Virus record (IMG/VR): IMGVR_UViG_2541047861_000010
Coordinates: 1 to 39,308 of that record
DNA length: 39,308 nucleotides
Reading direction: 5' to 3' (one strand)
From: a virus
Lineage: Duplodnaviria; Heunggongvirae; Uroviricota; Caudoviricetes
Positions 2,110 to 38,556 of the stretch are shown here, piece after piece. Made by a program: the position numbers and the translations under genes. The notes under the pieces were generated by a model that did no database searches, was not told the DNA's origin, and saw only the letters and a program-made list of their open reading frames with translations. Numbering within the stretch: the first letter of the stretch is position 1; each line of letters opens with the position of its first letter.

Positions 2110-2119
2110 AGATATCCTT

Positions 2120-2836: not shown

Positions 2837-4050
2837 TATTTTTCAACCTCTGACAGGGGTAAGTAATGAGATGTCTGTAATGTCAAACTCTCTATCTCAA
2901 AGGAAATGTTGCTGATATTTTGACCTGCAAATTGCGGATGCCACTCAGCGCCAGGGAATAACATTTCCGCAGAAGTAGCAACTATAGGGTCAATAGCATT
3001 AAGATAATGTAACTTATCAGGTGCGCTGTGTAACAGTAACCACTGCAACTCCACTGAAGGATTTGTAAAATGTTCTAATAAATGAAAGTTATTATGTAGT
3101 ACGCTTAGTAAAAAACTGGTTTCGTATACTTCCGTTACATATTTCCACCCCTGATATTCAGGTGTATTTTCATAAACAATACCCATACCTTCACAATCAC
3201 TATGTCGAACTGCTTGTGGTGATAATAGTTGCAAAAGAGACAAAACATCGTCCGCATATTTTTTAACTGGATGACGATTTTGCTTACCTTTTATTTGATC
3301 AATTTCAAGTGAATCACCAACAACATTGAGAGCAATAGTAACATGAGGAATATTATTATTATCACGCAAACTGAATAACCGTAATTTATGTTGCTCAATT
3401 TGATTTGCATAATACTCACCATAACCACCGGTAAGATTTTTTCGATCATCAAACTGGCCTACGCAATGTTGCATATGCCATGATTCATAAGCCATTTCAC
3501 GACGAAGGTTCGAATGACTGGCATCAAACTCAACAATTTTTCCGTCTGGCACATCAAGTATTGACTTTACAGTATTTTGTTCACTCGGCTGCCACCCTTT
3601 CTCGCGTCGTTGAAGCATCTTTTCATGCTCTTCTTCACGCATTCTGAACGCAACGTAGCAGGTTATGCGCTGTAGTTTTGATTCCAGACGGGTACCACAT
3701 TTCCTGGAAAGAAATTCCACCAACTCCCGTTCTTTGGTTAATATTTGTTGATGATCGGTTTCGATATAATAAAGTGTCGCAGTTGATACTGAGGCAGTAT
3801 TAAACTTCGATACCAGCCATTCCGGGATTACATCATCATTTTTATTAAACAGTGAATATTCTGCAAGCGAGTTAATTTGTTGCACCATTGGAAAGTCACT
3901 AATTAGCCATCGATAAAAATGGTTGAGTAACCATTTTTGGATGGTCTCATTATCCTGGCGAAACAGACTTCTTTGCAAAATTGCTGTTTTTACTTCCGGG
4001 GCATTAATTACATCCCTTGCATTATAATTCTGGTGAATATTTCCAGTCAT
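2836..4050 (-). CDS. Hypothetical protein, 404 aa; first gene of AT-rich three-gene operon
   Basis: ORF with ATG start at 4048-4050. Hand-counted GC of a 60-nt sample in this island is about 32 percent, versus about 60 percent in a prophage structural-gene sample (23161-23220). No confident domain assignment. Confidence 0.6.
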   Translation of the reverse strand: MTGNIHQNYNARDVINAPEVKTAILQRSLFRQDNETIQKWLLNHFYRWLISDFPMVQQINSLAEYSLFNKNDDVIPEWLVSKFNTASVSTATLYYIETDHQQILTKERELVEFLSRKCGTRLESKLQRITCYVAFRMREEEHEKMLQRREKGWQPSEQNTVKSILDVPDGKIVEFDASHSNLRREMAYESWHMQHCVGQFDDRKNLTGGYGEYYANQIEQHKLRLFSLRDNNNIPHVTIALNVVGDSLEIDQIKGKQNRHPVKKYADDVLSLLQLLSPQAVRHSDCEGMGIVYENTPEYQGWKYVTEVYETSFLLSVLHNNFHLLEHFTNPSVELQWLLLHSAPDKLHYLNAIDPIVATSAEMLFPGAEWHPQFAGQNISNISFEIESLTLQTSHYLPLSEVEK

Positions 4051-4537: not shown

Positions 4538-5899
4538 ATGTTTAAACCGGAACTCCTTTCCCCGGCGGGAACGCTGAAAAATATGCGTTACGCTTTCGCT
4601 TATGGCGCAGATGCTGTTTATGCGGGCCAGCCGCGTTACTCCCTGCGTGTACGCAACAACGAATTCAACCACGAAAATCTTCAGCTCGGCATCAATGAAG
4701 CCCACGCGCTGGGGAAAAAGTTTTATGTCGTGGTCAACATTGCACCGCACAACGCCAAGCTGAAAACCTTTATCCGTGACCTGAAACCGGTGGTGGAAAT
4801 GGGGCCGGATGCGCTGATTATGTCCGATCCAGGGCTGATTATGCTGGTGCGTGAACACTTCCCGGAAATGCCAATCCACCTCTCGGTACAGGCTAACGCC
4901 GTAAACTGGGCGACGGTGAAATTCTGGCAGCAAATGGGTCTGACCCGCGTGATCCTCTCTCGCGAACTGTCACTGGAAGAGATTGAAGAGATCCGCAATC
5001 AGGTGCCGGATATGGAGATCGAAATCTTCGTTCACGGCGCGCTGTGCATGGCCTACTCCGGTCGCTGCCTGCTCTCTGGCTATATCAACAAGCGCGACCC
5101 GAACCAGGGCACCTGCACCAACGCCTGCCGCTGGGAGTACAATGTCCAGGAAGGGAAAGAAGATGACGTCGGCAACATCGTACACAAGTACGAGCCGATT
5201 CCGGTGCAAAATGTTGAGCCGACGCTGGGTATCGGCGCGCCAACCGACAAAGTGTTTATGATCGAAGAAGCCCAGCGTCCGGGCGAGTATATGACCGCGT
5301 TTGAAGATGAGCACGGCACTTACATCATGAACTCGAAAGATCTGCGCGCCATCGCCCATGTTGAACGCCTGACCAAAATGGGCGTGCATTCGCTGAAAAT
5401 CGAAGGCCGTACCAAATCTTTCTACTATTGCGCACGCACCGCGCAGGTTTACCGTAAAGCTATCGATGACGCCGCTGCGGGCAAACCGTTCGATACCAGC
5501 CTGCTGGAAACGCTGGAAGGTCTGGCGCATCGTGGCTATACCGAAGGTTTCCTGCGTCGTCATACCCACGACGATTATCAGAACTACGAATACGGTTATT
5601 CGGTTTCTGACCGCCAGCAGTTTGTTGGTGAGTTTACCGGTGAGCGCAAGGGGGAGCTCGCGGCGGTAGCGGTGAAAAATAAATTCTCCGTTGGCGACAG
5701 CCTTGAGCTGATGACGCCGCAAGGCAACATTAACTTTACCCTTGAGCATATGGAAAACGCCAAAGGTGAAGCGATGCCGGTCGCACCAGGCGATGGTTAT
5801 ACTGTGTGGCTCCCGGTGCCGCAGGATCTTGAGCTAAATTACGCGCTGCTGATGCGTAATTTCTCCGGGGAAACCACGCGTAACCCCCACGGTAAGTGA
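4538..5899 (+). CDS. yegQ: Peptidase U32-family protein YegQ (tRNA hydroxylation protein TrhP)
   Basis: 453-aa translation beginning MFKPELLSPAGTLKNMRYAFAYGADAVYAGQPRYSLRVRNNEF matches my recollection of E. coli YegQ in length and sequence; followed by cyaR as in E. coli K-12. Confidence 0.9.
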   Translation: MFKPELLSPAGTLKNMRYAFAYGADAVYAGQPRYSLRVRNNEFNHENLQLGINEAHALGKKFYVVVNIAPHNAKLKTFIRDLKPVVEMGPDALIMSDPGLIMLVREHFPEMPIHLSVQANAVNWATVKFWQQMGLTRVILSRELSLEEIEEIRNQVPDMEIEIFVHGALCMAYSGRCLLSGYINKRDPNQGTCTNACRWEYNVQEGKEDDVGNIVHKYEPIPVQNVEPTLGIGAPTDKVFMIEEAQRPGEYMTAFEDEHGTYIMNSKDLRAIAHVERLTKMGVHSLKIEGRTKSFYYCARTAQVYRKAIDDAAAGKPFDTSLLETLEGLAHRGYTEGFLRRHTHDDYQNYEYGYSVSDRQQFVGEFTGERKGELAAVAVKNKFSVGDSLELMTPQGNINFTLEHMENAKGEAMPVAPGDGYTVWLPVPQDLELNYALLMRNFSGETTRNPHGK

Positions 5900-17660: not shown

Positions 17661-18008
17661 TCAACTCACAGGGATGGTTAACGAAAGTGGCTGGCCGGTG
17701 TCGTTGTGCTGGCCGGTTAACGTAACTGTCATTCGCCCGTCAAAGCTGCGCGCCGTGGTGACGGATGACAGGGTGACGCGGGGTTCCCATTTCAGCACCG
17801 CCATGTAACAGGCGACCTTAATCTGCAACTCAAGCGCCGGGGTCTGCGGCTGGTCAATCATTGACGCCAGCAACGAGCCGTAATCACGCCGCATCACCCG
17901 TGAGCCGACCGGTGTGCGCAGGATATCGCCGATACTCTGGCTGATATGCTCAAGGTCAGTGACAGTCAGGCCATCACTGCGATTCATTCCGAGATAACGC
18001 GCTGTCAT
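17661..18008 (-). CDS. W: Baseplate protein gpW (115 aa)
   Basis: Length and synteny match P2 W. Confidence 0.9.
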   Translation of the reverse strand: MTARYLGMNRSDGLTVTDLEHISQSIGDILRTPVGSRVMRRDYGSLLASMIDQPQTPALELQIKVACYMAVLKWEPRVTLSSVTTARSFDGRMTVTLTGQHNDTGQPLSLTIPVS

Positions 18009-18646
18009 TTTGTCCCCTGTGTCCAGTTGTCTCCTGACTTAACACCACCGTGACCGTGGTCATCCACCTGAACGCCGTTAGACGTGAATTTCCCGTCGGT
18101 ATGCTCGATGTTGCCGTGCATCTTCCCGCCCTTCTGCACTTCCAGCGTGCCGGTAGTCAGTTTGTTAGTGCAGACCACTTCCGGTGTGTCCAGGGTGATG
18201 CGGGTTGACGCTTTCACCATGACCACCGGCACCGTGGCAGTAACAGAATCAGAAGCCGTCACGCTGGCCGTTTTAATTCCGCTTACCGTGAGTGCACTGG
18301 TTTCAGGTTCATACTCAATCACCGCCCCGTCAGGGAAACGGATATGCAGGGCATCCGCCGACGCAGACGGCGCGGGGTTATCGCCGGAATAAATCCCCGG
18401 CAGAACGAACGCCGTGTCGAGTTCACCGCCCACGGCCAGAATCAGCACCTGTTCCCCCACGGAAGGTGCCCACCATGTGCGCGAACGCCCGGCACGATGG
18501 GTCAGCCACTGAAGCCAGTCGGTGCACATGCCGCCGGTCTGCACACGGCAGCGACCGGCGTTAAGGTCGGTTTCGACGACAAGACCGGTGCGGATCATAT
18601 TGCGCAGTGCGCGCGCGAGTTCCTGGATATTTGATAGTGTGCTCAT
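18005..18646 (-). CDS. V: Baseplate spike protein gpV (213 aa)
   Basis: Start set at MSTLSNIQELARALRNMIRTG... by recalled similarity to the P2 V N-terminus; the longer upstream extension in the ORF track has no RBS. Confidence 0.85.
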   Translation of the reverse strand: MSTLSNIQELARALRNMIRTGLVVETDLNAGRCRVQTGGMCTDWLQWLTHRAGRSRTWWAPSVGEQVLILAVGGELDTAFVLPGIYSGDNPAPSASADALHIRFPDGAVIEYEPETSALTVSGIKTASVTASDSVTATVPVVMVKASTRITLDTPEVVCTNKLTTGTLEVQKGGKMHGNIEHTDGKFTSNGVQVDDHGHGGVKSGDNWTQGTK

Positions 18647-18692
18647 ATGACAATAATGGGGAACATATGCTCGAAAAACTATTGCAACCCGT

Positions 18693-18710
18693 TGTATCAT
18701 TTTCGGCACA
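18693..18710. promoter_or_regulatory. Candidate Ogr-box dyad TGT-N12-ACA in the V/moron divergent intergenic region
   Basis: TGTATCATTTTCGGCACA read directly; it has the recalled P2 late-promoter dyad form. Its spacing to the V start does not fit the canonical -55 position, so the assignment is tentative. Confidence 0.3.
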
Positions 18711-18729
18711 ACCAAGAAGGAGCCGAAGC

Positions 18730-19473
18730 ATGGATAAATATCAAATCTGGGAAAAACAAAAAGACACCATCGCCCATAAAGAATATTTAAAAATTTCCGA
18801 CACCAATTTACTTGGACATATACACATTGCCAATTATGAGGTGATTCAAAGTGAATTAAGCAAATTCAACTCTCCTGAAATTGTACTCCACTACTCACTT
18901 AATAGAAATGAATTAAAAAAAGAGAGCATAAATATATCAAGACATTTTCTCAACTATATCTCCTCAGCATTATCACTTAGAGATTCAACTCGAAATCTAC
19001 ATAAAATTAATGTGTTAAATATTGATAACATTACCAATAAATCCAGAGAAATCATCAATGAAGAATTTTTAAAAAATCCAATCATCAAATTAATGGAGGA
19101 TTTAAGAAACATCCTAACCCATCAAAAAATGATCTCCCCATTAATATCATCATTTATGCACCTCCAGAAAAAAATAAACATACACGGATTTGCATTTAAG
19201 ATTGAAACCATACTGGAGAATGACCGACTTTCTGGTAAATCAAAAGAATACCTGAAGTCAACAGAACAAAAAAATTTATTCATCTTGCCGATAATAGAGG
19301 AATACCAATACACAACTCTTAAATACCAGCACTGGCTTTTAGCTTGTATCCACAATGCTCATCAAAATACATACCCAGAATACTGGGAAGCAAGAAAAAA
19401 CATAATGGACGTCTGGGGTGGAGATATCCAACTAATACCTGAAGAGAGTGCCCTCACTTATTTGACCAGATAA
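18730..19473 (+). CDS. Hypothetical protein (247 aa), AT-rich moron at the P2 orf30 position between V and S
   Basis: ATG at 18730 with AAGGAG 10 nt upstream; hand-counted GC of a 60-nt sample is about 22 percent; opposite strand to all flanking tail genes. No recognisable domain. Confidence 0.7.
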   Translation: MDKYQIWEKQKDTIAHKEYLKISDTNLLGHIHIANYEVIQSELSKFNSPEIVLHYSLNRNELKKESINISRHFLNYISSALSLRDSTRNLHKINVLNIDNITNKSREIINEEFLKNPIIKLMEDLRNILTHQKMISPLISSFMHLQKKINIHGFAFKIETILENDRLSGKSKEYLKSTEQKNLFILPIIEEYQYTTLKYQHWLLACIHNAHQNTYPEYWEARKNIMDVWGGDIQLIPEESALTYLTR

Positions 19474-19506
19474 CAATCTAATTAGCTCACAAACATAAGA
19501 CACCTT

Positions 19507-19529
19507 GGCCACGATATTTTATCGTGGCC
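19507..19529 (+). terminator. Possible terminator hairpin after the moron
   Basis: Hairpin GGCCACGAT-ATTTTA-ATCGTGGCC; the downstream T-tract is weak (TTATAT). Confidence 0.35.
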
Positions 19530-19686
19530 TTATATGATAAAGCGACTACCTTCTATGAGCCCTTATAACTCTCATCCACTGCACATTTTCAAGTTACAAT
19601 TAAAGTTCATTTAGTTGAAATATAAAAAGGATGCCGTAAGAGGATAATGGCGATATTTCATCAATAAGGCGCAAGAAATGGCACAA

Positions 19687-20139
19687 CTAACGGTCGAGGT
19701 GAGCCAGAATAATCTCTTCAATCATCTGCACATCCTCACCGGTAAAGCCGAGCAGGGGACGCGCCGGATAATCAATTTTCTTACCGTCTTTCCGGGTTTC
19801 TTCCGACAGACCGAACTGATGCACACTGGCGATTTTCGGTGACTTCCCGCCGTAAAACTCCATTGATGCCTGCTCCGGGCTGGCGCGGATATGCAAAAAA
19901 CGACTGGTGATAAGTTTCGCAAACATTTTTCGCTTAACACGACCGGTCTTTTTTCTGGCGCTCTGCTGCTGGCGTGGCGCGTAGGGTGTGCCGTCCGGGG
20001 CTTTCTGTGCCATCACCCGACGCTGCTGACTCTGCCGCAGACGTTTCGCCAGTTCGGCACTCAGTCGCCGACGCCCTGACGGTGACAGCGATTCAATCAG
20101 TCCGGTCAGCCGGTCTTCAAAACGCTTAAACTCATTCAT
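19687..20139 (-). CDS. S: Tail completion protein gpS (150 aa)
   Basis: Length and synteny match P2 S. Confidence 0.9.
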   Translation of the reverse strand: MNEFKRFEDRLTGLIESLSPSGRRRLSAELAKRLRQSQQRRVMAQKAPDGTPYAPRQQQSARKKTGRVKRKMFAKLITSRFLHIRASPEQASMEFYGGKSPKIASVHQFGLSEETRKDGKKIDYPARPLLGFTGEDVQMIEEIILAHLDR

Positions 20140-25886: not shown

Positions 25887-26059
25887 TGTCAGGAGTCCTG
25901 AATAGTGATTAGAGGAGTCAAATGTCGGCATCAGTTTCCCGACGATGCGCATCCTCCGCCATCAGTCCCGGATGGCTTATCACTGACACAACAGCACCTT
26001 AGCGAATCGCGGGGCGCGACTCAGTAGCCTTGCCGTGTATTCATCACGGCGAGGTATTC
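25887..26059. promoter_or_regulatory. Divergent late-promoter region for the O-side and P-Q operons
   Basis: Intergenic region between divergently oriented O and P, where P2 late promoters lie. No perfect TGT-N12-ACA dyad found; an inverted repeat CCGTG-N7-CACGG is present at 26033-26049. Confidence 0.4.
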
Positions 26060-27832
26060 ATGACCATCACCACAGACACCACTCTTTTACACGACCCGCG
26101 TCGTCAGGCGGCGCTGCTGTACTGGCAGGGATTTTCCGTGCCGCAGATTGCCGCCATGTTGCAGATGAAACGCCCGACGGTGCAGAGCTGGAAACAGCGC
26201 GACGGCTGGGACAGTGTTGCCCCCATCAGCCGTGTCGAAATGAGTCTGGAAGCGCGGCTGACCCAGCTCATCATCAAACCGCAGAAAACCGGCGGTGACT
26301 TCAAGGAAATTGACCTGCTCGGACGCCAGATTGAACGACTGGCACGGGTAAACCGCTACAGCCAGACCGGCAACGAGGCAGACCTTAATCCGAACATCGC
26401 TAACCGCAACAAAGGCGGGCGTCGCAAACCGAAAAAGAATTTTTTCAGTGACGAGGCCATCGAAAAGCTGGAGCAGATTTTCTTTGAGCAGTCTTTCGAA
26501 TATCAGTTGCACTGGTATCGCGCCGGGCTTGAGCACCGCATCCGCGATATCCTGAAATCCCGCCAGATTGGCGCGACGTTTTATTTTTCCCGCGAGGCGC
26601 TGCTGCGCGCCCTGAAAACCGGTCATAACCAGATTTTTCTGTCGGCCAGTAAAACGCAGGCGTATGTGTTCCGCGAATACATCATCGCCTTTGCCCGGCT
26701 GGTTGACGTTGACCTGACCGGTGACCCGATTGTCCTGGGCAATAACGGCGCAAAACTGATTTTTCTCGGCACCAACTCCAACACCGCACAGAGCCATAAC
26801 GGCGACCTGTACGTCGATGAGATTTTCTGGATCCCGAATTTTCAGGTACTGCGTAAGGTGGCATCAGGTATGGCCTCACAGAGTCACCTGCGCTCGACCT
26901 ATTTCTCCACCCCGTCCACGCTGGCGCACGACGCCTACCCGTTCTGGTCGGGTGAACTGTTCAACCGGGGACGCGCCAGCGCCGCCGAACGCGTGGAAAT
27001 CGACGTCAGTCATAACGCCCTTGCCGGTGGGCTTCTCTGTGCGGACGGCCAGTGGCGGCAGATTGTCACCATTGAGGACGCGCTGAAAGGCGGCTGCACA
27101 TTGTTCGACATTGAGCAGCTTAAACGTGAAAACAGCGCCGACGATTTTAAAAACCTGTTCATGTGTGAATTTGTTGACGACAAGGCGTCGGTGTTCCCGT
27201 TCGAGGAGCTGCAACGCTGCATGGTCGACACGCTGGAAGAATGGGAAGACTATGCGCCGTTTGCCGCGAATCCGTTCGGCTCCCGCCCGGTATGGATTGG
27301 TTACGACCCGTCACACCGTGGCGACAGTGCCGGATGCGTGGTGCTGGCACCGCCGGTGGTGGCCGGTGGCAAATTCAGAATACTTGAGCGTCACCAGTGG
27401 AAAGGCATGGACTTTGCCACTCAGGCTGAATCCATCCGCAAACTCACCGAAAAATACAACGTCGAATACATCGGTATTGATGCCACCGGCCTCGGTGTCG
27501 GCGTGTTCCAGCTCGTGCGCTCGTTCTATCCCGCCGCGCGCGACATCCGCTACACGCCGGAAATGAAAACCGCAATGGTGCTCAAGGCAAAAGACGTTAT
27601 CCGCCGTGGCTGTCTGGAATATGACGTCAGCGCCACCGACATCACCAGCTCGTTTATGGCTATCCGCAAGACCATGACCAGCAGCGGACGCAGTGCCACC
27701 TATGAGGCCAGCCGCAGCGAGGAAGCCAGCCACGCCGACCTCGCCTGGGCGACCATGCACGCCCTGTTAAATGAGCCACTCACCGCCGGTATCAGCACCC
27801 CGCTGACATCCACCATTCTGGAGTTTTACTGA
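26060..27832 (+). CDS. P: Terminase large subunit (ATPase/endonuclease) gpP (590 aa)
   Basis: Start at MTITTDTTLLHDPRRQAALLYWQGF (GAGG 7 nt upstream) matches P2 P; stop overlaps Q start (TGATG). Confidence 0.9.
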   Translation: MTITTDTTLLHDPRRQAALLYWQGFSVPQIAAMLQMKRPTVQSWKQRDGWDSVAPISRVEMSLEARLTQLIIKPQKTGGDFKEIDLLGRQIERLARVNRYSQTGNEADLNPNIANRNKGGRRKPKKNFFSDEAIEKLEQIFFEQSFEYQLHWYRAGLEHRIRDILKSRQIGATFYFSREALLRALKTGHNQIFLSASKTQAYVFREYIIAFARLVDVDLTGDPIVLGNNGAKLIFLGTNSNTAQSHNGDLYVDEIFWIPNFQVLRKVASGMASQSHLRSTYFSTPSTLAHDAYPFWSGELFNRGRASAAERVEIDVSHNALAGGLLCADGQWRQIVTIEDALKGGCTLFDIEQLKRENSADDFKNLFMCEFVDDKASVFPFEELQRCMVDTLEEWEDYAPFAANPFGSRPVWIGYDPSHRGDSAGCVVLAPPVVAGGKFRILERHQWKGMDFATQAESIRKLTEKYNVEYIGIDATGLGVGVFQLVRSFYPAARDIRYTPEMKTAMVLKAKDVIRRGCLEYDVSATDITSSFMAIRKTMTSSGRSATYEASRSEEASHADLAWATMHALLNEPLTAGISTPLTSTILEFY

Positions 27833-28866
27833 TGAGCAAGAAAAAAGGGAAAACACCGCAACCTGCGGCAAAAAAAATGACCGCCAGCGCCCCGAAAATG
27901 GAGGCATTCACCTTTGGTGAGCCGGTGCCGGTACTCGACCGCCGTGACATTCTGGATTACGTCGAGTGCATCAGTAACGGCAGATGGTATGAGCCGCCGG
28001 TCAGCTTTACCGGTCTGGCAAAAAGCCTGCGTGCTGCCGTGCATCACAGCTCGCCGATTTACGTTAAACGCAATATTCTGGCCTCGACATTTATCCCGCA
28101 TCCGTGGCTTTCACAGCAGAATTTCAGCCGCTTTGTGCTGGACTTTCTGGTGTTCGGTAATGCGTTTCTGGAAAAGCGTTACAGCACCACCGGCAAGGTC
28201 ATCAGACTGGAAACCTCACCGGCAAAATATACCCGCCGTGGTGTGGAGGAGGATGTTTACTGGTGGGTGCCTTCCTTCAACGAGCCGACAGCCTTCGCAC
28301 CTGGCTCCGTGTTTCATCTGCTGGAGCCGGATATTAATCAGGAGCTGTACGGCCTGCCGGAATATCTCAGCGCCCTTAACTCTGCCTGGCTGAATGAGTC
28401 GGCCACGCTGTTCCGCCGCAAGTATTACGAAAACGGCGCACATGCCGGATACATCATGTATATCACCGACGCATTGCAGGACCGCGATTACATTGACTCA
28501 CTTCGCGAAAACATGGCCAGGTCGAAAGGCCGCAATAACTTTAATAATCTGTTTCTCTATGCACCGCAGGGAAAGCCAGACGGCATCAAAATTATCCCGC
28601 TCAGTGAAGTGGCGACAAAGGACGATTTTTTTAATATCAAAAAATCCAGCGCCGCTGACCTGCTGGACGCGCACCGCATCCCCTTTCAGTTGATGGGCGG
28701 CAAGCCGGAGAACGTCGGGTCGCTGGGCGATATTGAGAAAGTGGCAAAGGTCTTTGTCCGCAATGAGCTTATCCCGTTACAGGACAGGATTCGGGAAATA
28801 AACGGCTGGCTCGGTCAGGAGGTCATCCGCTTTAAAAACTACTCACTGGACACTGACAACGGCTGA
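27832..28866 (+). CDS. Q: Portal protein gpQ (344 aa)
   Basis: 344 aa; P2 Q length and position next to cos. Confidence 0.9.
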   Translation: MSKKKGKTPQPAAKKMTASAPKMEAFTFGEPVPVLDRRDILDYVECISNGRWYEPPVSFTGLAKSLRAAVHHSSPIYVKRNILASTFIPHPWLSQQNFSRFVLDFLVFGNAFLEKRYSTTGKVIRLETSPAKYTRRGVEEDVYWWVPSFNEPTAFAPGSVFHLLEPDINQELYGLPEYLSALNSAWLNESATLFRRKYYENGAHAGYIMYITDALQDRDYIDSLRENMARSKGRNNFNNLFLYAPQGKPDGIKIIPLSEVATKDDFFNIKKSSAADLLDAHRIPFQLMGGKPENVGSLGDIEKVAKVFVRNELIPLQDRIREINGWLGQEVIRFKNYSLDTDNG

Positions 28867-29095: not shown

Positions 29096-29128
29096 GGAAA
29101 AAGCCCTCCAGGACTGGAGGGCTTTTCT
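29096..29128. terminator. Bidirectional rho-independent terminator between cos and the cargo operon
   Basis: Hairpin GCCCTCC-AGGACT-GGAGGGC flanked by A5 upstream and TTTTCTATT downstream, so T-tracts on both strands; about 60 nt past the stop of the last cargo gene. Confidence 0.55.
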
Positions 29129-29182: not shown

Positions 29183-30250
29183 TCATTTCTTAGCTTTCAC
29201 AACCGGATGCGCGCGATCATGTCCACCGCCACGATGCTTAGAAAATATAACCTTTTCATTAGTAAAAGGTTTTTGGCCATAGACACTATCATAGTGGAAA
29301 AAGACGTTCGGAAGATGAGGCACACGGATGAATCCATACTTCACTCTAGTATCACCGATGACCCCAAAAACCCTTGTACTTACTGGGTAGCATAGTTCAC
29401 CACAACGCATCACTAATTCATCTGCTGTTGGGCGTTCAGAAGGTTCCAATTTTAAACAATCTTCTATAAGTTTAATTATTTCATTTGCCAATGGCGCATA
29501 CTGTCTATTTGAAAATATAAAGTCAGGGTAAGGAACATGCGTGCCAGAAAGTATTTTTGGTATAGCCATATAACCAATACCAAAAGGGTATTTTCCAGTA
29601 AGAATCCTGAACATCATCGCACCCAATGCCCAAATATCTGTAGGTTTCGAAACCTTACCTTGACTCTGTATGATTTCCGGTGCCATATATGGCAAAGCCC
29701 CGATAGCCGTTTGCGAAGAACTAATTGAATCTTGACCATTTCTTGCAGCCTCATCAATTTCATCTCCGGCCATCTTTGAAATGCCGAAATCCGTAATTTT
29801 TATCTCTGTAGCATTGATACCACCGCCTACCATTATATTTGAAGGTTTGAGGTCCCGGTGTATGACGTCAACATGATGCGAAGCAGACAGAGCTTTAGCT
29901 AAATTATGAAATATTTTAGCAGTTAAATATGGATCAACACTTGAATAAGTGTCTAAAATAGCCTTATCCAAGTCAACTCCATCAATAAATTCCTCCGTTA
30001 AAAACTCTCTACCCTCATCATCAATGAAGTAATCTAAGGTTTTAGCCACATTAGGATGATTAACCCTTGATGCTAATATTGCACTTCTATGAAACCTTTT
30101 TTCAGCAGATTTATTTTTGGGAGTTTTGAGAGCCACATGCCTCGAGAGAATATTATCCATTGCCAAATAAACTTTTTGCATACCGCCTTCACCAATCTCC
30201 CTCAATATTGTATATCTGCTAACTTGAATTCCTGGAGTCAGATTTATCAT
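29183..30250 (-). CDS. Hanks-type Ser/Thr protein kinase with C-terminal cold-shock-like (OB-fold) domain (355 aa)
   Basis: Kinase motifs present: G-loop GEGGMQKV, VALK lysine, HRDLKPSN, DFG, APE. C-terminal 60 aa (VFGVIGDTRVKYGFIRVPHLPNVFFHYDSVYG...EKVIF) aligns by eye to the CspA pattern. AT-rich; start overlaps upstream stop (ATGA). Confidence 0.85.
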   Translation of the reverse strand: MINLTPGIQVSRYTILREIGEGGMQKVYLAMDNILSRHVALKTPKNKSAEKRFHRSAILASRVNHPNVAKTLDYFIDDEGREFLTEEFIDGVDLDKAILDTYSSVDPYLTAKIFHNLAKALSASHHVDVIHRDLKPSNIMVGGGINATEIKITDFGISKMAGDEIDEAARNGQDSISSSQTAIGALPYMAPEIIQSQGKVSKPTDIWALGAMMFRILTGKYPFGIGYMAIPKILSGTHVPYPDFIFSNRQYAPLANEIIKLIEDCLKLEPSERPTADELVMRCGELCYPVSTRVFGVIGDTRVKYGFIRVPHLPNVFFHYDSVYGQKPFTNEKVIFSKHRGGGHDRAHPVVKAKK

Positions 30251-31311
30251 AACACCACCTCCGGATGGGAAAGGTCAAATGTAATGAAGACCCGCTCTTT
30301 TCTTGGCCGAGAAGTCTCTCCCAGAATAATAACACATGAATCAGGCAAAATATTATATTGCTTTGCAGCTATATTATTCACATACACCTCACCACTTAAA
30401 CTCGATATATAAAACTCTGAACCAGAATATTTCACCTCAATAGTCCCGACCCCTGAATTATTAAAAGCCGCAGATTTATTTGTTGAAGAAATGATGACGG
30501 GTGGAGTGTTATCAGAGATTAACAATGCTCTATGAGAGTTGTAGAGAACGAATTTTTTTAGAGTCTGACACACATCAGCCATATCAGGTCTCTCACAAGG
30601 ATTCGTATCTAAACATTGGAAAAGCAATTCTTTTACCTGAGTTGGTAACTGTATATTAGAATTATCAAAAGGATTAGACAATAATTTTTTGGGTAAAACT
30701 CTCATTTCCGGTGGTAGTGGGGTCTTAGCCAAAAACATGGCCGTTACAGCAAAAGCATATGTATCTATGGATTTTGTAAACGCTACTTGATGTAAAAATA
30801 ATTCAGGTGCAGCATATGTTGGGGTTCCTTTAAAACCTATTGTATTAGCTTCATCAACATTTCTAGATAGTCCGAAGTCATAAATCTTCACTACTCCCTC
30901 AGAATCAATTTTCATGTTCCCAGGCTTGATATCCCTATGAATAATATCATGAGAATGTATCTCAGAAATACCCGAAGATATTTGCCACAAAATTTTAATC
31001 AGATCTTCAGAATTTAATATGCGATCCTCTACTTCCAATAATGAAGGTCCGTCAACATACTCTTCGACTATAGCAATTCCTTTACCTTGATAATTAATAA
31101 CATCATAAAGCTCTACTACATGTTTTGATCTTAATTTCATCAATGCTGATAACTCATCCATCATTCGAGGAGAATCATCAGGATTACTTATGGACTTTAT
31201 AGCGACAAATCTTTCGAGGTGAGTATCCAAGCATTTGATCACGCAACCAAATCCTCCCGAAGCCTCTTCTTCAGTCCTCTTATATCTTGCAGGGAGAGTA
31301 AAATTAGTCAT
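30247..31311 (-). CDS. Hanks-type Ser/Thr protein kinase with C-terminal FHA-like domain (354 aa)
   Basis: Kinase motifs present: GGFGCV, VAIK, HRDIKPGN, DFG, APE. C-terminal segment (SSLSGEVYVNNIAAKQYNILPDSCVIILGE) resembles the FHA signature. RBS AAGGAG 7 nt upstream. Confidence 0.85.
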   Translation of the reverse strand: MTNFTLPARYKRTEEEASGGFGCVIKCLDTHLERFVAIKSISNPDDSPRMMDELSALMKLRSKHVVELYDVINYQGKGIAIVEEYVDGPSLLEVEDRILNSEDLIKILWQISSGISEIHSHDIIHRDIKPGNMKIDSEGVVKIYDFGLSRNVDEANTIGFKGTPTYAAPELFLHQVAFTKSIDTYAFAVTAMFLAKTPLPPEMRVLPKKLLSNPFDNSNIQLPTQVKELLFQCLDTNPCERPDMADVCQTLKKFVLYNSHRALLISDNTPPVIISSTNKSAAFNNSGVGTIEVKYSGSEFYISSLSGEVYVNNIAAKQYNILPDSCVIILGETSRPRKERVFITFDLSHPEVVL

Positions 31312-32470
31312 CTTTATCTCCTTTAGTGGAGTTTTTCTCAGAGAATGAAATATCTAACTGTGAAATATTATCTAACTTATCATTATTGTTAGCTTCGATA
31401 ACATTCCTTCCCTCATCACTCTTTATATTACTATTTTTTTTCTTTGTACGTGATTTCCTTTTCGATACATTTTTTTTGTTAGAAATTTCATTACTGCATT
31501 CTAACTCAGTAACTTTTCTATCAATAACATTTTCAACCGTAGCTGAGTTAGGTATATCTAACGGCGCAGGTTGCACGCTAATTACTTTCATCTCACCAAA
31601 AGGATCCCATAAATTAATTACATCCCCAGATGATACATCCAAAGCACTTAGGATGTTCGAAATCTCAACTACCGCAATCGACGCATTATCAAATCCACCA
31701 AACCAACTAGCTAGATCTATAACTCTTTTAGCGAACACTCCAGTATTATTGGAGTGAGCATATAATTTTCTCAAATTATTACTGTCAATGGTATGAGCAC
31801 CATCTGAAGTTAATGCAACCACCCCAGGTACGAGCCGAATATCGTGAAAATGTATCTCAAGAACACCATCAAGACCTATAAACTGTACTAACTCGCCACC
31901 TAACCTAGAATCAATAACACCTGAGTCACTACCAAGATGCTCATTATATTTCTTTGCCAATACAGCTAATGTATCATCCTCACTAATTTGTTTTATGTGT
32001 TCAGCATTAATGGAATATATGCGACTATCCCCGACATTTATTGCTGTAATGTTATCGGAGTCATCTACAGCTAAGGCAGATAACGTAGCCCCACCGTTCC
32101 CATTATATACTTTCAAAACCGATTCATTTGCTTTTAAAACGGCGATTTCAAGACATTGTCTAATTGGCAAGCCTGAGTGTTTAATTATCTCGGTAAAAAA
32201 AGATGATACGGTCAATGAAGCAGCATTCGCTCCCCCTTCCATCCCCCCCATACCATCTGCTAAAGCGATGACAATCATGTCCTTATTCTTACTAAAAGGA
32301 CGAAATTTTAATACAGCTACCCGGTCTTGGTTCTCTTTCCTAACTAAACCTATGTCTGTAGCAATAGCTGCAGGTAGCATAGATACTCTTCGTACAGATG
32401 AAGAGATATTTTTTCTATGCAGCCAAGCGTGTATCTGTTCATGAAGGATCTCGTAAGAGTCTCGACTCAC
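31304..32470 (-). CDS. PP2C-family Ser/Thr protein phosphatase with Lys-rich disordered C-terminal tail (388 aa)
   Basis: PP2C motifs ALADGMGG, VGDSR and TSDG read in the translation. GTG start with GAGGAGG 4 nt upstream; 3' end overlaps the downstream kinase start by 8 nt (ATGACTAA). Confidence 0.8.
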   Translation of the reverse strand: MSRDSYEILHEQIHAWLHRKNISSSVRRVSMLPAAIATDIGLVRKENQDRVAVLKFRPFSKNKDMIVIALADGMGGMEGGANAASLTVSSFFTEIIKHSGLPIRQCLEIAVLKANESVLKVYNGNGGATLSALAVDDSDNITAINVGDSRIYSINAEHIKQISEDDTLAVLAKKYNEHLGSDSGVIDSRLGGELVQFIGLDGVLEIHFHDIRLVPGVVALTSDGAHTIDSNNLRKLYAHSNNTGVFAKRVIDLASWFGGFDNASIAVVEISNILSALDVSSGDVINLWDPFGEMKVISVQPAPLDIPNSATVENVIDRKVTELECSNEISNKKNVSKRKSRTKKKNSNIKSDEGRNVIEANNNDKLDNISQLDISFSEKNSTKGDKDD

Positions 32471-32691: not shown

Positions 32692-34977
32692 CTATATACA
32701 TCGTTGATTTATTGGAAGCCCCGGCCACTCATCAACAACCGGATATGTAAATTTTTTCTCGCCATATGCCACCCTCGCACCTCGTGCTAGTACATCCAGC
32801 TCCCACCGTTCCGGCGTGATGCCATGCTGTGCGAGGTCAAACCGGATACGCGATATCTGGTCGCGCTGCGATTTAGTCAGCCTTGCCGATGGCGCAATTT
32901 CATTAGGTTTTAACGGGCCTCCGTTTCTCTGCTGACGATTTGGTGTTCTCAGGCCGTGTTTTAATGCGCCCCTGAGCGCCCTCACTACATCCGGGTCATT
33001 CCATTCGATAACACCTTCATCAACCAGATTAAGTACTGCTGCGGCGTGCTCAGAAGGTGTGGGAGCCGGTAACGAAGTATCACCACCAGTGAGCTTTCCA
33101 CAGTTATTGACAGGACTCCGAGGCGCGGCGATGCCGCTTTTTAAAGTCAAAGGCTCAACGACCGGAACTTTCGGCACAATGCGCCAGTCCGTCGTTCTGG
33201 TGATATGAATATGACGCGCGCCGAGATGCGGCGCGTAAATGCCGACCACCCTCTCGACCTCTTCCTCGTACTCGTTAACGTCATCCGACGGGCTACGGGC
33301 GACTCTGACAGTCTGACAATCGCGCGGGACATTTGCCCCACCCTGCGCGCTGATATACAACGCAAAATCACCACTGTCTGCGGCGGCGCGTGCAGCCTCG
33401 ACGCGCTCGTCAAACTCATCAGCAATGCTGACGCCGCGCGGCAATTTGCGTAGTTCACGGTAAGCCCCCATTGTCGGCAGACCAACCGTTTTAAATTGCG
33501 GGATGCGCCACGTTGACGCCCATGCGGTAACAGCCGCAGCAGTGTCTTTCAGCGGCCTGCCGGTATCGTTATCGAGCTGACCATCCAGTGCATAGCCGTC
33601 GATGTTTTTTGAGATGTATTTCGCGATATACCCCGCAGCACCGCCCCGGTTAAGGTGTTTTGCCTGAAAACGGTTTCGCGCGGCTCCTCTTTCATCGCCA
33701 TCCTCTTTGAGCGCATAGCGACGCATGATTTCGATAATCTGGTTACGCTGGCGCGGATTACAAAAAAGCATCATATGCCAGTGCGGCGTTCCGTCGTGGT
33801 GTGGCTCGACGACACGCAAACCGTAGACCTGTAAATCATTATCCTTGAATGCCGTGCGCATCAGGCTCCAGATACGGCAGAGATAACGCTGCGCATCCTT
33901 TGGATTAAATGCCTCATCGTTCCAGCCGTGATTTAGCTGGACGGTTTTACTTTCGCCTTTTCTGACCTGACGTGTCGGGTGATACTTTGACGGCGCGGTC
34001 AGCGTGATAAACATCCCCACATCACCCTCTGCTGCGGCGTAACGCTCAATACCGGCAATGGTGTTCATCAGCTCCATCCGGCGAATTTCAGGATTAGAAA
34101 TACTGCCCATCACCTTACTGATAAGGTCGATGCGCTCGCCGGTTTCCCTGTTTTCGAGATCACACGATTTAAGAAATTCCAGATTTGCCTGGCGGCGTGC
34201 ACGCACATCACGAATGGCATGTTTACTGGCATAAGGAGAACGGTCTTTATTGACCTCCCCGACAGCAATCAGTAACGCCTCATGCCAGCGCATACGCTGG
34301 CCTTTAAGCTGATGGGTCCACCACTCATCGTTAAACAGACGGGCAATGGCAGAATATGCCTGCCTCGTGGTCATCTGCCCTTTACGGTATTTTTTCCAGT
34401 AGAGCGGGGAAATATTGAAAGCACGTGCAGCACCAGCAACATGACCATAGAGGTGAGCCTGCGCCTCATCCGTAAACAGCGATTCTTTTTCGCCATGCGC
34501 ATCCCCCCAGGCATCGCAGAGTTCCTCATACATCATGAAAAGCTGCGATGAGATACGGGCGGCAAACTTTTTCAGCTCCTTGTCATTCATCCCCGGCAGA
34601 CGCGCATAATGGTCACGCTCTGCCAGAAACAGCAACGACGCGTCGGTGTTCATTTCATGGCGCTGATTCACACGCTCAATGCGCGGCCATAAACGACGCT
34701 GAAAAGTGGATGTGAGAAAATAAAACCCGTGCACCGGGCTTTTATTGCGCCGGATGTAGTCATAGCGTGACGTAAACAGCGAGCGCAAAAAGTAAGGCAG
34801 GCGGTTAATCGTGGATAAAACACCTTGCACCTGACGCATCTCGTCACGTGTAAGGGGTCTTTCGCGCCCGACAGCCTCGCGTGGCGCGTTCCATGCATAA
34901 GCACCGGTAAACGCCTTACCGGTGCCTGCGGCAAATGCTGACGGAGGGACAAAACGCCCGGAGGCTTTAACGGCCAT
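32692..34977 (-). CDS. A: Replication initiation endonuclease gpA (761 aa)
   Basis: Start set at MAVKASGRFVPPSAFAAGTGK to match the recalled P2 A N-terminus and length; sequence closely resembles P2 A. Confidence 0.9.
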   Translation of the reverse strand: MAVKASGRFVPPSAFAAGTGKAFTGAYAWNAPREAVGRERPLTRDEMRQVQGVLSTINRLPYFLRSLFTSRYDYIRRNKSPVHGFYFLTSTFQRRLWPRIERVNQRHEMNTDASLLFLAERDHYARLPGMNDKELKKFAARISSQLFMMYEELCDAWGDAHGEKESLFTDEAQAHLYGHVAGAARAFNISPLYWKKYRKGQMTTRQAYSAIARLFNDEWWTHQLKGQRMRWHEALLIAVGEVNKDRSPYASKHAIRDVRARRQANLEFLKSCDLENRETGERIDLISKVMGSISNPEIRRMELMNTIAGIERYAAAEGDVGMFITLTAPSKYHPTRQVRKGESKTVQLNHGWNDEAFNPKDAQRYLCRIWSLMRTAFKDNDLQVYGLRVVEPHHDGTPHWHMMLFCNPRQRNQIIEIMRRYALKEDGDERGAARNRFQAKHLNRGGAAGYIAKYISKNIDGYALDGQLDNDTGRPLKDTAAAVTAWASTWRIPQFKTVGLPTMGAYRELRKLPRGVSIADEFDERVEAARAAADSGDFALYISAQGGANVPRDCQTVRVARSPSDDVNEYEEEVERVVGIYAPHLGARHIHITRTTDWRIVPKVPVVEPLTLKSGIAAPRSPVNNCGKLTGGDTSLPAPTPSEHAAAVLNLVDEGVIEWNDPDVVRALRGALKHGLRTPNRQQRNGGPLKPNEIAPSARLTKSQRDQISRIRFDLAQHGITPERWELDVLARGARVAYGEKKFTYPVVDEWPGLPINQRCI

Positions 34978-35242
34978 ATGAGCCAAAAGCCTCTGAACAA
35001 CGCTTGCTGAGTTGCTCAACCTGCACGTTTAAATCAGCAAAAGACTTTGCGCTTCCGGTCAGAATATCGTGATGCATCAGGCCGGAAACGAGCTGGCTTA
35101 ATTTCGGGTAATAACCAACCACCGACAGCCATTCCTGACCGGCGTTTTTACCGCTTTCCGCTCTCTTTTTCTCGTGGAGAATAAACTGAAAGCTGTCACT
35201 GGTAACGACATAACGTTCGCCAATTTCAATACGAATACTCAT
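34967..35242 (-). CDS. P2 orf83-like early protein (91 aa)
   Basis: Position between orf82 and A; ATGA overlap with orf82 stop. Confidence 0.7.
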   Translation of the reverse strand: MSIRIEIGERYVVTSDSFQFILHEKKRAESGKNAGQEWLSVVGYYPKLSQLVSGLMHHDILTGSAKSFADLNVQVEQLSKRCSEAFGSYGR

Positions 35243-37542: not shown

Positions 37543-38556
37543 ATGGCAATCAAAAAACTCGATGATGGTCGATATGAAGTGGACATCCGCCCTACTGGAC
37601 GTAACGGAAAACGCATCCGTAGGAAGTTTGATAAGAAAAGCGAAGCTGTCGCTTTCGAAAAATACACGTTGTACAACCACCACAATAAAGAATGGCTATC
37701 AAAACCAACAGACAAACGACGTCTGTCGGAACTGACACAGATCTGGTGGGATTTAAAGGGTAAACACGAAGAGCATGGGAAATCTAATCTTGGAAAAATT
37801 GAAATCTTCACAAAAATAACGAATGACCCATGCGCATTTCAAATCACGAAATCCCTTATCAGCCAGTACTGCGCCACCCGAAGAAGTCAGGGTATTAAAC
37901 CTTCGAGTATCAATCGTGATTTAACATGTATTAGCGGCATGTTTACAGCCCTGATTGAAGCGGAGTTATTCTTTGGTGAGCACCCTATCAGAGGGACAAA
38001 GAGGCTTAAGGAGGAAAAACCAGAAACAGGCTATCTCACACAGGAAGAAATTGCCTTACTGCTTGCAGCACTTGACGGCGACAACAAAAAGATTGCGATT
38101 CTTTGCCTGAGTACAGGAGCACGTTGGGGAGAAGCAGCTCGTTTGAAAGCAGAAAATATCATCCATAACCGCGTCACGTTTGTTAAAACGAAAACAAACA
38201 AACCACGCACCGTCCCGATCTCAGAGGCTGTTGCCAAAATGATCGCGGATAACAAACGAGGTTTTTTATTCCCTGATGCTGATTACCCTCGCTTCAGACG
38301 AACAATGAAAGCAATAAAACCGGATTTGCCAACGGGGCAAGCCACACATGCACTAAGGCACAGCTTTGCCACTCATTTCATGATTAATGGAGGAAGTATT
38401 ATCACGCTACAACGGATACTAGGTCACACGCGGATTGAGCAAACTATGGTTTACGCTCATTTTGCGCCAGAGTACCTTCAGGACGCCATTTCTCTTAATC
38501 CGCTAAGAGGTGGTACTGAAGCCGAGAGTGTCCACACAGTGTCCACAGTAGAGTAA
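37543..38556 (+). CDS. int: Tyrosine integrase (337 aa)
   Basis: 337 aa with the tyrosine-recombinase C-terminal signature (HALRHSFATHF...LGH...YAH); GGAGGG RBS; adjacent to the att core. Confidence 0.95.
   Translation: MAIKKLDDGRYEVDIRPTGRNGKRIRRKFDKKSEAVAFEKYTLYNHHNKEWLSKPTDKRRLSELTQIWWDLKGKHEEHGKSNLGKIEIFTKITNDPCAFQITKSLISQYCATRRSQGIKPSSINRDLTCISGMFTALIEAELFFGEHPIRGTKRLKEEKPETGYLTQEEIALLLAALDGDNKKIAILCLSTGARWGEAARLKAENIIHNRVTFVKTKTNKPRTVPISEAVAKMIADNKRGFLFPDADYPRFRRTMKAIKPDLPTGQATHALRHSFATHFMINGGSIITLQRILGHTRIEQTMVYAHFAPEYLQDAISLNPLRGGTEAESVHTVSTVE

What the first reader, a model, noticed from the sequence alone, without database searches (positions are those of the whole stretch)
29183..30250. 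Ser/Thr kinase fused to a cold-shock (OB-fold) nucleic-acid-binding domain
The last 60 residues of the 355-aa kinase follow the CspA pattern (G-I-V, KGFGFI-like YGFIRV, aromatic RNP-like NVFFHYDSV, EKVIF). A cold-shock domain binds single-stranded nucleic acid, so this fusion could couple detection of phage ssDNA or RNA to kinase activation. Such a fusion is uncommon among bacterial Hanks kinases.
Basis: partly seen in the sequence, partly recalled or inferred. Interest (0 to 1): 0.65.

Follow-up and report, generated by a model that had tools for sequence, protein, structure and literature searches.

The report
Known KKP kinase with cold-shock domain
This gene does encode a protein kinase with a cold-shock domain at its end, but it is the PfkA kinase of the published kinase-kinase-phosphatase (KKP) anti-phage module carried by P2-like prophages, so it is a correct observation of something already described.

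Summary
ORF 29183-30250 (minus strand, 355 aa) has an intact Hanks-type kinase domain (residues 13-280) followed by a five-stranded beta-barrel (293-353). A profile of homologues and a fold search of the predicted structure both identify that barrel as a cold-shock domain (CSD). The window's own sequence alone is only borderline for this (Pfam CSD E=0.003, below the curated cut-off).

The fusion is not novel. The gene is the last of a low-GC, three-gene operon: PP2C phosphatase, kinase, kinase-CSD. The operon sits in the cos-proximal hotspot of an E. coli P2-like prophage, between gpA and the portal gene. This is the KKP module (PfpC-PfkB-PfkA) of Guo et al. 2024, reported in more than 1200 clusters, mostly in prophages including P2.

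Published primers for the tested E. coli module KKP-EC039 match exactly a sister allele at the same locus. The window's proteins are 68-81% identical to that allele.

In tested homologues the two kinases together are toxic, the phosphatase is the antitoxin, and phage proteins trigger the system through the phosphatase. The CSD GFI motif is required for toxicity. Nucleic-acid binding or sensing by the CSD has not been shown. Verdict: already known, low interest.

The parts
29183..30250 (-). pfkA-like gene: Ser/Thr kinase with C-terminal cold-shock domain (355 aa)
   Evidence: ORF. Pkinase E=4.7e-45. The product is 80.8% identical to the PfkA of the KKP-EC039-type allele in L005. Its C-terminal motif RAHPV matches Pf6 PfkA as read from the published primers.
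29411..30214 (-). Hanks-type kinase domain (residues 13-280), with catalytic motifs GGM22, K42, HRD131, DFG154 and APE190 intact
   Evidence: AF2 pLDDT is mostly above 90, except in the activation loop at residues 157-177.
29372..29404 (-). Conserved linker C283-x-x-L-C-Y288-x4-R293 between kinase and CSD. Y288 and R293 are invariant in 119 homologues.
   Evidence: The published Pf6 CSD construct starts at the equivalent Y (YAKNPR).
29192..29374 (-). Cold-shock domain (residues 293-353): a five-stranded beta-barrel
   Evidence: Profile against PDB finds almost only CSDs. 52 of 56 homologues hit PF00313. AF2 strands are 293-301, 305-309, 316-319, 333-339 and 346-353, with pLDDT 93-97. The top Foldseek hits are all CSD-type barrels.
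29327..29335 (-). G306-F307-I308: the 'GFI' motif (RNP1 equivalent), which Guo et al. showed is required for toxicity and defence in homologues
   Evidence: G is 100%, F 95% and I 98% conserved. Mutational evidence in homologues is in PMC11341870.
30247..31311 (-). pfkB-like gene: second Ser/Thr kinase (354 aa), with a conserved ~100-aa C-terminal beta-rich domain that the KKP paper calls FHA
   Evidence: Pkinase E=1.7e-42. There is a 4-bp ATGA overlap with pfkA. The C-terminus DLSHPEVVL matches Pf6 PfkB DLSHPEINL. An FHA domain is not detectable by sequence here.
31304..32470 (-). pfpC-like gene: PP2C phosphatase (388 aa) with a Lys/Asn/Ser-rich C-terminal tail. It is the presumed antitoxin and trigger receptor.
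   Evidence: PP2C_2 E=4.7e-6, 26.7 bits, above the cut-off of 24. There is an 8-bp overlap with pfkB. The product is 67.8% identical to the PfpC of the EC039-type allele.
29103..29122 (-). Terminator-like hairpin GCCCTCCAG-TC-CTGGAGGGC followed by a T run, 60 nt downstream of pfkA
32692..35019 (-). P2 gpA replication endonuclease: one boundary of the cos-proximal hotspot
   Evidence: RefSeq annotates it as 'replication endonuclease'. GC is 0.536, against 0.376 for the cassette.
27832..28866 (+). P2 gpQ-like portal gene: the other boundary of the hotspot
   Evidence: ORF. The same GPA-KKP-portal arrangement is seen in L005 and L003 with Pfam Phage_portal. The hotspot is defined in PMC9122126.

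Best explanation
The gene is the pfkA component of a KKP (kinase-kinase-phosphatase) module. [quoted passage not shown] Here it is carried as cargo in the cos-proximal hotspot (gpA to gpQ) of an E. coli P2-like prophage.

Shown here:
- The operon structure pfpC-pfkB-pfkA, with overlapping genes.
- Intact catalytic motifs in the kinase.
- A genuine cold-shock fold at the PfkA C-terminus.
- Conservation of the triplet in distant bacteria.
- 68-81% protein identity to the experimentally tested E. coli allele at the same locus.

Inferred from the tested homologues (Guo et al. 2024):
- PfkA and PfkB act together. Each alone is inactive.
- Together they autophosphorylate and phosphorylate many host proteins of replication, translation, transcription and division, which arrests growth.
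- PfpC continuously reverses this phosphorylation.
- An infecting phage protein disables PfpC. T4 Gp59, the helicase loader, does so for the E. coli allele.
- Loss of PfpC activity releases kinase toxicity and aborts phage production.

The CSD is required for kinase output: GFI mutants are inert. The most likely reason is that it holds the PfkA-PfkB pair together and/or directs it to nucleic-acid-associated substrates. It is probably not the primary phage sensor.
For: Gene order, overlaps and low GC.

Domains.

Triplet conserved next to integrases or in P2-like prophages in Pseudoalteromonas, Caballeronia, Providencia and E. coli.

Published description of KKP (the PfkA-CSD with its GFI motif, more than 1200 clusters, P2/P4/Mu/Pf prophages, GPA and portal as neighbours): PMC11341870.

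Published mechanism.

The published pfpC-EC039 primers match L005 exactly at both gene ends, and the window's proteins are 67.8%, 67.5% and 80.8% identical to L005's.

The termini of Pf6 PfkA and PfkB, read from published primers, match the window's motifs.

The hotspot is defined in PMC9122126.
Against: This particular allele has not been tested. PfpC, the trigger receptor, is only 68% identical to the tested one, so the trigger and the range of phages blocked may differ.

The FHA assignment of the PfkB C-terminal domain, part of the published definition, could not be reproduced by sequence. None of 40 homologues hits PF00498, and hhalign against an FHA alignment gives probability 6.6%.

PADLOC v2.0.0 has no model that matches the phosphatase, and it files both kinases under mad6 or PD-T4-6.

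The role of the CSD within the mechanism is inferred, not measured.
Confidence: 0.92

Rival explanations
1. One reading: the CSD is the sensor. It binds phage single-stranded DNA or RNA, and this binding switches the kinase on.
For: The domain has a true CSD fold. The RNP1/RNP2 core is conserved: the position equivalent to F15 is aromatic in 118 of 119 sequences, F307 is 95%, F317 100% and H319 93% conserved. The CSD carries net charge +8 in the window protein, with a family mean of +2.8, against -1 and -2 for CspA and Bc-Csp. The GFI motif is essential in homologues. The known trigger Gp59 works at ssDNA and replication forks.
Against: PfkA+PfkB co-expression is toxic without phage. Both known triggers act on the phosphatase: Gp59 inhibits it and RepG4 triggers its degradation. 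T4 escape mutations map to gp59, not to anything affecting nucleic acid. The position equivalent to the base-stacking W8 of Csp proteins is not aromatic (D, E or N), and the F30 equivalent is variable. No binding data exist.
Confidence: 0.15
2. The CSD is a protein-protein module. Its barrel (GFI face) docks onto PfkB to form the active heterodimer and has lost nucleic-acid binding, like the non-canonical CSDs of Unr/CSDE1.
For: [quoted passage not shown] Truncation of either C-terminal domain abolishes joint toxicity. Family-specific invariant residues lie outside the RNP motifs (Y288, R293, Y324, G325, R346, P349). The closest CSD relatives by profile are Unr/CSDE1-type domains.
Against: The conserved aromatic RNP core and the basic charge are not needed for a purely protein-binding role. 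I could not inspect model coordinates or run a complex prediction.
Confidence: 0.4
3. The CSD is a targeting module. It tethers the kinase pair to RNA or ssDNA so that nucleic-acid-associated proteins become substrates.
For: Reported substrates are enriched in nucleic-acid-bound proteins: TopA, PolA, DnaG, InfB, RpoD, MvaU and PfiA. The RNP core is conserved and the domain is basic.
Against: This is entirely inferential. Substrates also include FtsZ and MinCE. It is compatible with, and not exclusive of, the protein-docking model.
Confidence: 0.3
4. The resemblance to a CSD is chance, and the tail is an unrelated small beta domain.
For: Single-sequence statistics are not significant.
Against: The profile, the homologue scans and the structure comparison all converge on CSD.
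Confidence: 0.01

Closest known systems
KKP module PfpC-PfkB-PfkA (Guo et al. 2024, Nat Commun 15:7244, PMC11341870). Tested examples are KKP-MP (Pf6 prophage, P. aeruginosa), KKP-EC039 (E. coli), KKP-SW (Shewanella P4-like), and the V. tasmaniensis and S. Typhi modules.
   Same: Same gene order, same strand and overlapping genes. Gene lengths fall within 900-1300 bp. PfkA is a kinase plus CSD with the GFI motif. The PfkB C-terminal domain is homologous. The first gene is a PP2C phosphatase. The location is the P2 prophage hotspot between GPA and the portal gene. Proteins are 68-81% identical to the EC039-type allele.
   Different: This is a distinct allele, and the phosphatase and PfkB are only ~68% identical to the tested ones. 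It is more frequent than the tested allele in complete E. coli genomes (14 against 4 of 5426). It has not been tested experimentally, so its trigger and phage range are unknown.
Stk2 of Staphylococcus (Depardieu et al. 2016)
   Same: A Hanks-type Ser/Thr kinase that aborts phage infection by phosphorylating many host proteins. This comparison comes from the discussion in PMC11341870.
   Different: Stk2 is a single gene, host-encoded and Gram-positive. It has no partner kinase, no phosphatase antitoxin and no CSD.
PD-T4-6 (single-gene kinase defence, PADLOC models) and mad6
   Same: The kinase domain scores strongly against these PADLOC models (1.1e-54 for mad6, 4.5e-50 for PD-T4-6).
   Different: The matches cover only the kinase domain (residues ~5-292) and do not include the CSD. 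PD-T4-6 is defined as a single gene. No PADLOC model matches the phosphatase.
Bacterial cold-shock proteins (CspA/CspB) and eukaryotic Unr/CSDE1 cold-shock domains
   Same: Five-stranded OB barrel with TM 0.64-0.77 to solved CSDs. The RNP1 'GFI' and RNP2 'VFFH' cores are conserved.
   Different: The domain is fused to a kinase. It lacks the aromatic equivalent of W8. It has family-specific invariant residues (Y324-G325, R346, P349, a GGG loop) and is basic rather than acidic. By profile it is closer to Unr/CSDE1-type domains than to Csp proteins.

Membership tests
KKP module (Guo et al. 2024) | Three adjacent co-oriented genes in the order PP2C phosphatase, kinase, kinase | tested here: met
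   Genes at 31304-32470, 30247-31311 and 29183-30250, all on the minus strand, with 8-bp and 4-bp overlaps.
KKP module (Guo et al. 2024) | Gene lengths between 900 and 1300 bp (the paper's filter) | tested here: met
   The genes are 1167, 1065 and 1068 bp. The criterion is quoted.
KKP module (Guo et al. 2024) | PfkA-type kinase with a C-terminal CSD carrying the GFI/GFA motif | tested here: met
   CSD shown by family profile and by predicted fold. The motif G306-F307-I308 is present.
KKP module (Guo et al. 2024) | PfkB-type kinase with a C-terminal FHA domain (PF00498) | tested here: inconclusive
   The C-terminal domain is homologous to that of Pf6 PfkB (DLSHPEVVL against DLSHPEINL). However, none of 40 homologues hits PF00498, the profile finds no FHA in PDB, and hhalign against a Pfam-validated FHA alignment gives probability 6.6%.
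KKP module (Guo et al. 2024) | Sequence homology to an experimentally tested module | tested here: met
   The published pfpC-EC039 primers match L005 exactly. Window against L005: PfpC 67.8%, PfkB 67.5% and PfkA 80.8% identity.
KKP module (Guo et al. 2024) | Joint kinase toxicity neutralised by the phosphatase, and protection against lytic phages | not testable with these tools
   These are experimental properties, shown only for homologues.
KKP module (Guo et al. 2024) | Location in a temperate prophage or other mobile element | tested here: met
   The cassette lies between P2 gpA and the portal gene. Cassette GC is 0.376 against 0.54-0.56 in the flanks.
Cold-shock domain (Pfam PF00313, OB fold) | Score above the Pfam gathering threshold for this sequence | tested here: not met
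   The tail alone scores 17.9 bits against a cut-off of 27. The full-length scan gives no hit at E<=1.
Cold-shock domain (Pfam PF00313, OB fold) | Homology detectable at family (profile) level | tested here: met
   52 of 56 homologues hit PF00313 (best E=2.8e-9). The profile against PDB gives Unr 4.6e-9 and CspB 6e-6.
Cold-shock domain (Pfam PF00313, OB fold) | Five-stranded antiparallel beta-barrel superposable on solved CSDs | tested here: met
   AF2 pLDDT is 89-97. Foldseek TM scores are 0.64-0.77, and CspA aligns with rmsd 1.7 A.
Cold-shock domain (Pfam PF00313, OB fold) | RNP1/RNP2 aromatic nucleic-acid-binding surface, and actual ssDNA/RNA binding | tested here: inconclusive
   The equivalents of F15, F17, F27 and H29 are conserved. 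The W8 and F30 equivalents are not. Binding itself cannot be tested here and has not been reported.
PD-T4-6 (single-gene kinase defence) | A stand-alone kinase gene sufficient for defence | tested here: not met
   The kinase is embedded in a conserved three-gene operon. In homologues a single kinase is inactive.

The most novel reading that the evidence does not exclude
The PfkA cold-shock domain may be a functional single-stranded nucleic-acid binder. If so, it would give the KKP kinase pair a second input or a targeting function, for example recruitment to replication forks or gp32/Gp59-type ssDNA intermediates, or to RNA. Phosphatase inhibition alone would then not be the whole trigger. No published work tests this, and the conserved RNP core and basic charge leave it open.
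Probability: 0.3. Interest if true: 0.5.

Novelty: already known. Interest (0 to 1): 0.15.

Why it matters
The finding matters little as a discovery. The kinase-CSD fusion, its operon partners, its prophage location and its defence role were published in 2024.

There are three residual points of value:
- Current annotation does not name the system. RefSeq labels the gene 'serine/threonine-protein kinase', and PADLOC files the kinases under PD-T4-6 or mad6, with no model matching the phosphatase. Scans will therefore keep 'rediscovering' it.
- The window carries an untested allele that is more common in complete E. coli genomes than the tested one, and its phosphatase is only 68% identical. It may recognise a different phage trigger.
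- The biochemical role of the CSD is still open.

Tried and rejected
Homologue search with the tail alone: the search for homologous proteins with the 88-aa tail returned only 3 fragments, a limitation of the word index. The full-length search was needed.

Single-sequence CSD tests: phmmer against PDB, BLASTP against CspA and the full-length Pfam scan were all non-significant, so I did not rely on them.

Identity with the tested construct: I looked for the window's own gene ends among the published primers and found no match. I therefore rejected 'identical to KKP-EC039'. The primers match the sister allele in L005 instead.

Deposited phage genomes: a megablast of the cassette found only the P2 flank, and tblastn found a single full-length relative at 45% identity (Klebsiella phage Kp4865-2).

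No significant signal was found.

Short CSD-bearing proteins: I considered that the 210-225-aa CSD-bearing proteins in the representative search might be a new architecture. They are N-terminally truncated kinases.

P2 hotspot paper: the main text of Rousset et al. 2022 does not describe this cassette.

Filing under PD-T4-6 or Stk2: rejected, because those are single-gene systems.

Full report
**1. What is at the coordinates**

ORF 29183-30250 on the minus strand encodes 355 aa from an ATG preceded by GGAGG. Residues 13-280 are a Hanks-type protein kinase domain (Pfam Pkinase E=4.7e-45). The catalytic signatures GGM22, K42, HRD131, DFG154 and APE190 are all present.

**2. Is the tail a cold-shock domain?**

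On the single sequence the evidence is only suggestive:
- The full-length Pfam scan gives no PF00313 hit at E<=1, only S1-like (another OB family) at E=0.084.
- The tail alone gives CSD E=0.0029 at 17.9 bits, below the curated cut-off of 27.
- phmmer against all PDB sequences gives just two hits below E=10, both cold-shock domains, at E=0.15 and 0.29.

With relatives the picture becomes clear. The full-length protein has a very large family. The 120 best clusters are all 347-364 aa, cover 96-100% of the query, and all end in the same conserved tail.

A 56-sequence alignment of the tail (A2) was tested two ways. Scanned member by member, 52 of 56 hit PF00313 (best E=2.8e-9) and 53 of 56 hit S1-like. 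Used as a profile against PDB sequences, it retrieves almost exclusively cold-shock domains: Drosophila Unr 4.6e-9, Bacillus CspB 6e-6 and human CSDE1 1.3e-5.

AlphaFold2 on the full-length alignment gives mean pLDDT 90.2 and pTM 0.89. It shows five strands at 293-301, 305-309, 316-319, 333-339 and 346-353, with pLDDT 93-97. A domain-only model has pLDDT 89. Foldseek against PDB with that model returns 34 hits at E<=1e-3, all cold-shock or S1-like (CSD-type) OB barrels. E. coli CspA (1mjc) aligns at TM 0.76/0.81 and rmsd 1.7 A over 69 columns.

**3. Context**

The gene is the last of three co-oriented genes. Upstream are a second kinase (30247-31311, 354 aa, 4-bp ATGA overlap) and a PP2C phosphatase (31304-32470, 388 aa, 8-bp overlap). 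A terminator-like hairpin follows at 29103-29122.

The cassette has 37.6% GC, against 54-56% for its neighbours. Those neighbours are the P2 replication gene A (32692-35019) and the P2 portal and terminase genes (27832-28866 and 26030-27832). The rest of the window is a P2-like prophage, from the tail genes to the integrase at 37543-38556, inserted next to a peptidase U32 gene.

The gpA-gpQ interval next to cos is the P2 defence hotspot that holds old and tin in P2 itself (Rousset et al. 2022, PMC9122126). The cassette is present at >=99.8% identity in 14 of 5426 complete E. coli genomes, annotated only as 'PP2C family phosphatase' and 'serine/threonine-protein kinase'.

The same triplet, phosphatase then kinase then kinase-CSD, recurs elsewhere. 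It sits next to integrases in Pseudoalteromonas and Caballeronia, and in the same P2 position in Providencia and in another E. coli lineage.

**4. What it is**

A literature search for kinase, cold-shock domain, phage defence and PP2C led directly to Guo et al. 2024 (Nat Commun 15:7244, PMC11341870). [quoted passage not shown]

The paper reports more than 1200 clusters in Gram-negative bacteria. Over 90% are in temperate prophages, including P2, P4, Mu-like and Pf6-like. It states that kinase-CSD fusions are essentially confined to these modules. Its Figure 3g legend lists Phage_GPA and Phage_portal among the neighbours.

I tied the window to the tested material in two ways.

First, the published primers for pfpC of E. 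coli 15EC039 (AGCCGTGATTCTTACGAA, and the reverse complement of TCACTCATCATCACCATCTCC; supplement) match locus L005 exactly at the start and end of its phosphatase gene. L005 is an E. coli contig carrying GPA-PP2C-kinase-kinase-portal. The primers do not match the window. The window's proteins are 67.8% (PfpC), 67.5% (PfkB) and 80.8% (PfkA) identical to L005's. The window therefore carries a sister allele of the tested KKP-EC039, at the same locus. The EC039-type allele occurs in 4 of 5426 complete E. coli genomes.

Second, primers for the Pseudomonas Pf6 proteins translate to matching termini. PfkA ends ...RAHPVMILDE, against the window's ...RAHPVVKAKK. PfkB ends ...DLSHPEINL, against the window's ...DLSHPEVVL. 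The Pf6 CSD construct starts at YAKNPR, against the window's Y288-PVST-R293, where Y288 and R293 are invariant in 119 homologues.

**5. How it most likely works**

All of the following is shown only for homologues:
- Neither kinase alone is toxic or active, but PfkA+PfkB together arrest growth.
- Toxicity needs HRD/DFG in at least one kinase, both C-terminal domains, and the GFI motif.
- The pair autophosphorylates and phosphorylates many proteins, including PolA, TopA, DnaG, InfB, Tsf, FtsZ, MinCE, RpoD and MvaU.
- PfpC catalytic activity neutralises this.
[quoted passage not shown] Defence by the Shewanella module needs the GFA motif.
- T4 escape mutants map to gp59 (G32E). Gp59 binds PfpC-EC039, modestly lowers its activity, and triggers toxicity.
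- In Pseudomonas, the Pf4 protein RepG4 triggers PfpC degradation (PMC12328805).

For the window's allele I infer the same logic: a phosphatase-guarded pair of toxic kinases, released when a phage protein disables the phosphatase. The trigger may differ, because the phosphatase is only 68% identical to the tested one.

**6. The role of the CSD**

This is the one open point. Mapping onto Bacillus Csp through the HMMER alignment gives mixed results:
- Conserved: the RNP1 and RNP2 core. The F15 equivalent is aromatic in 118 of 119 sequences, G306 is 100%, F307 95%, I308 98%, F317 100% and H319 93% conserved.
- Not conserved: the base-stacking W8 equivalent is D, E or N, and the F30 equivalent is variable.
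- Family-specific: invariant residues lie outside the RNP motifs (Y288, R293, Y324, G325, R346, P349, and a GGG loop).

The domain is basic, with net charge +8 here and a family mean of +2.8.

These features are compatible with nucleic-acid binding, with docking to PfkB (as Guo et al.'s pulldowns and modelling suggest), or with both. Neither the 2024 paper nor the two follow-ups report a nucleic-acid-binding test.

**7. Family tests that failed or were inconclusive**

The PfkB C-terminal domain (about 100 aa, consensus ...GEVxINN...LPGSCVVxLG...FITFDxSHPEVVL) is homologous to the Pf6 domain called FHA. I could not detect FHA by sequence:
- None of 40 homologues hits PF00498.
- No precomputed FHA hit appears in 120 clusters.
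- The profile finds no FHA chain in PDB.
- hhalign against a five-member FHA alignment gives probability 6.6% over 26 columns.

From my own reading of the alignment, the canonical GR and SxxH phosphothreonine-binding signatures are not apparent.

PADLOC v2.0.0 files both kinases under mad6 or PD-T4-6 through the kinase domain only, and no PADLOC model matches the phosphatase.

**8. Verdict**

The mechanistic reading is only partly right, and the claim of rarity is wrong. The feature is the PfkA kinase of a KKP module, already described with its CSD, its operon partners, its P2 location and its defence function. Interest is low. The residual open questions are what the CSD binds and what this untested allele senses.

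Noticed in passing
window 30247-31311 (residues ~255-354 of the second kinase): The conserved C-terminal domain of the PfkB-like kinase, published as an FHA domain, shows no FHA signal by sequence: 0 of 40 homologues hit PF00498, and hhalign gives probability 6.6%. It also seems to lack the canonical GR and SxxH phosphothreonine-binding residues. It may be a highly diverged or degenerate FHA, or a different beta fold.
   Followed up: partly
protein P0002 (99 aa, on 4 contigs up to 295 kb): This protein is an in-frame fusion of the first ~47 residues of the EC039-type PfpC (MSRDSYEILHEHIHGW...) to the last ~52 residues of the PfkA CSD (AYGFIRIPNQPQVFFHYDSVYG...). It looks like a deletion remnant of a KKP cassette that removed most of the phosphatase, all of PfkB and the PfkA kinase domain.
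   Followed up: no
protein P0356 (404 aa): This protein has a PP2C_2 phosphatase domain (33-238) followed by a PfkA-type CSD at 327-401. It is either a phosphatase-CSD architecture or another deletion fusion. Its context could not be looked up.
   Followed up: no
window 18607-19473 (+), in the low-GC stretch 19001-20000: A 288-aa ORF lies on the opposite strand between the P2 tail genes V-like (18005-18715) and S (19687-20139), which I recall as the position of P2 orf30. It has no Pfam hit. It matches PHROG 12680 (unknown function) at E=5.9e-158. It may be a second cargo slot.
   Followed up: partly
window 1-4050 (-): Three co-oriented low-GC genes lie outside the prophage, beyond the peptidase U32 gene at 4538-5899. 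They encode DUF4034 (715 aa; the ORF starts at the window edge, coordinate 1), DUF1266 (238 aa) and a PcfJ-like protein (404 aa). Function is unknown, and this may be another accessory island.
   Followed up: partly
window 29183-32470; PADLOC result: PADLOC v2.0.0 scores both KKP kinases best as mad6 (E=1e-54 and 2e-52) and PD-T4-6, and no PADLOC model matches the phosphatase. Automated defence annotation would therefore mislabel KKP as single-gene kinase systems.
   Followed up: partly
alignment A2; By profile, the nearest relatives of the PfkA CSD outside the family are multi-CSD Unr/CSDE1-type proteins (4-8 domains, 400-1100 aa), not bacterial single-domain Csp proteins. A few homologues also touch the S1/CSD domain of TOTE conflict systems (PF22707).
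   Followed up: no
hit H8, NZ_CP083887.1 (43,140-bp record of E. coli NDM2): The same KKP cassette is present both in the chromosome of strain NDM2 (H9) and in a separate 43-kb record of the same assembly. This suggests an excised or episomal copy of the P2-like element, or an assembly duplicate.
   Followed up: no
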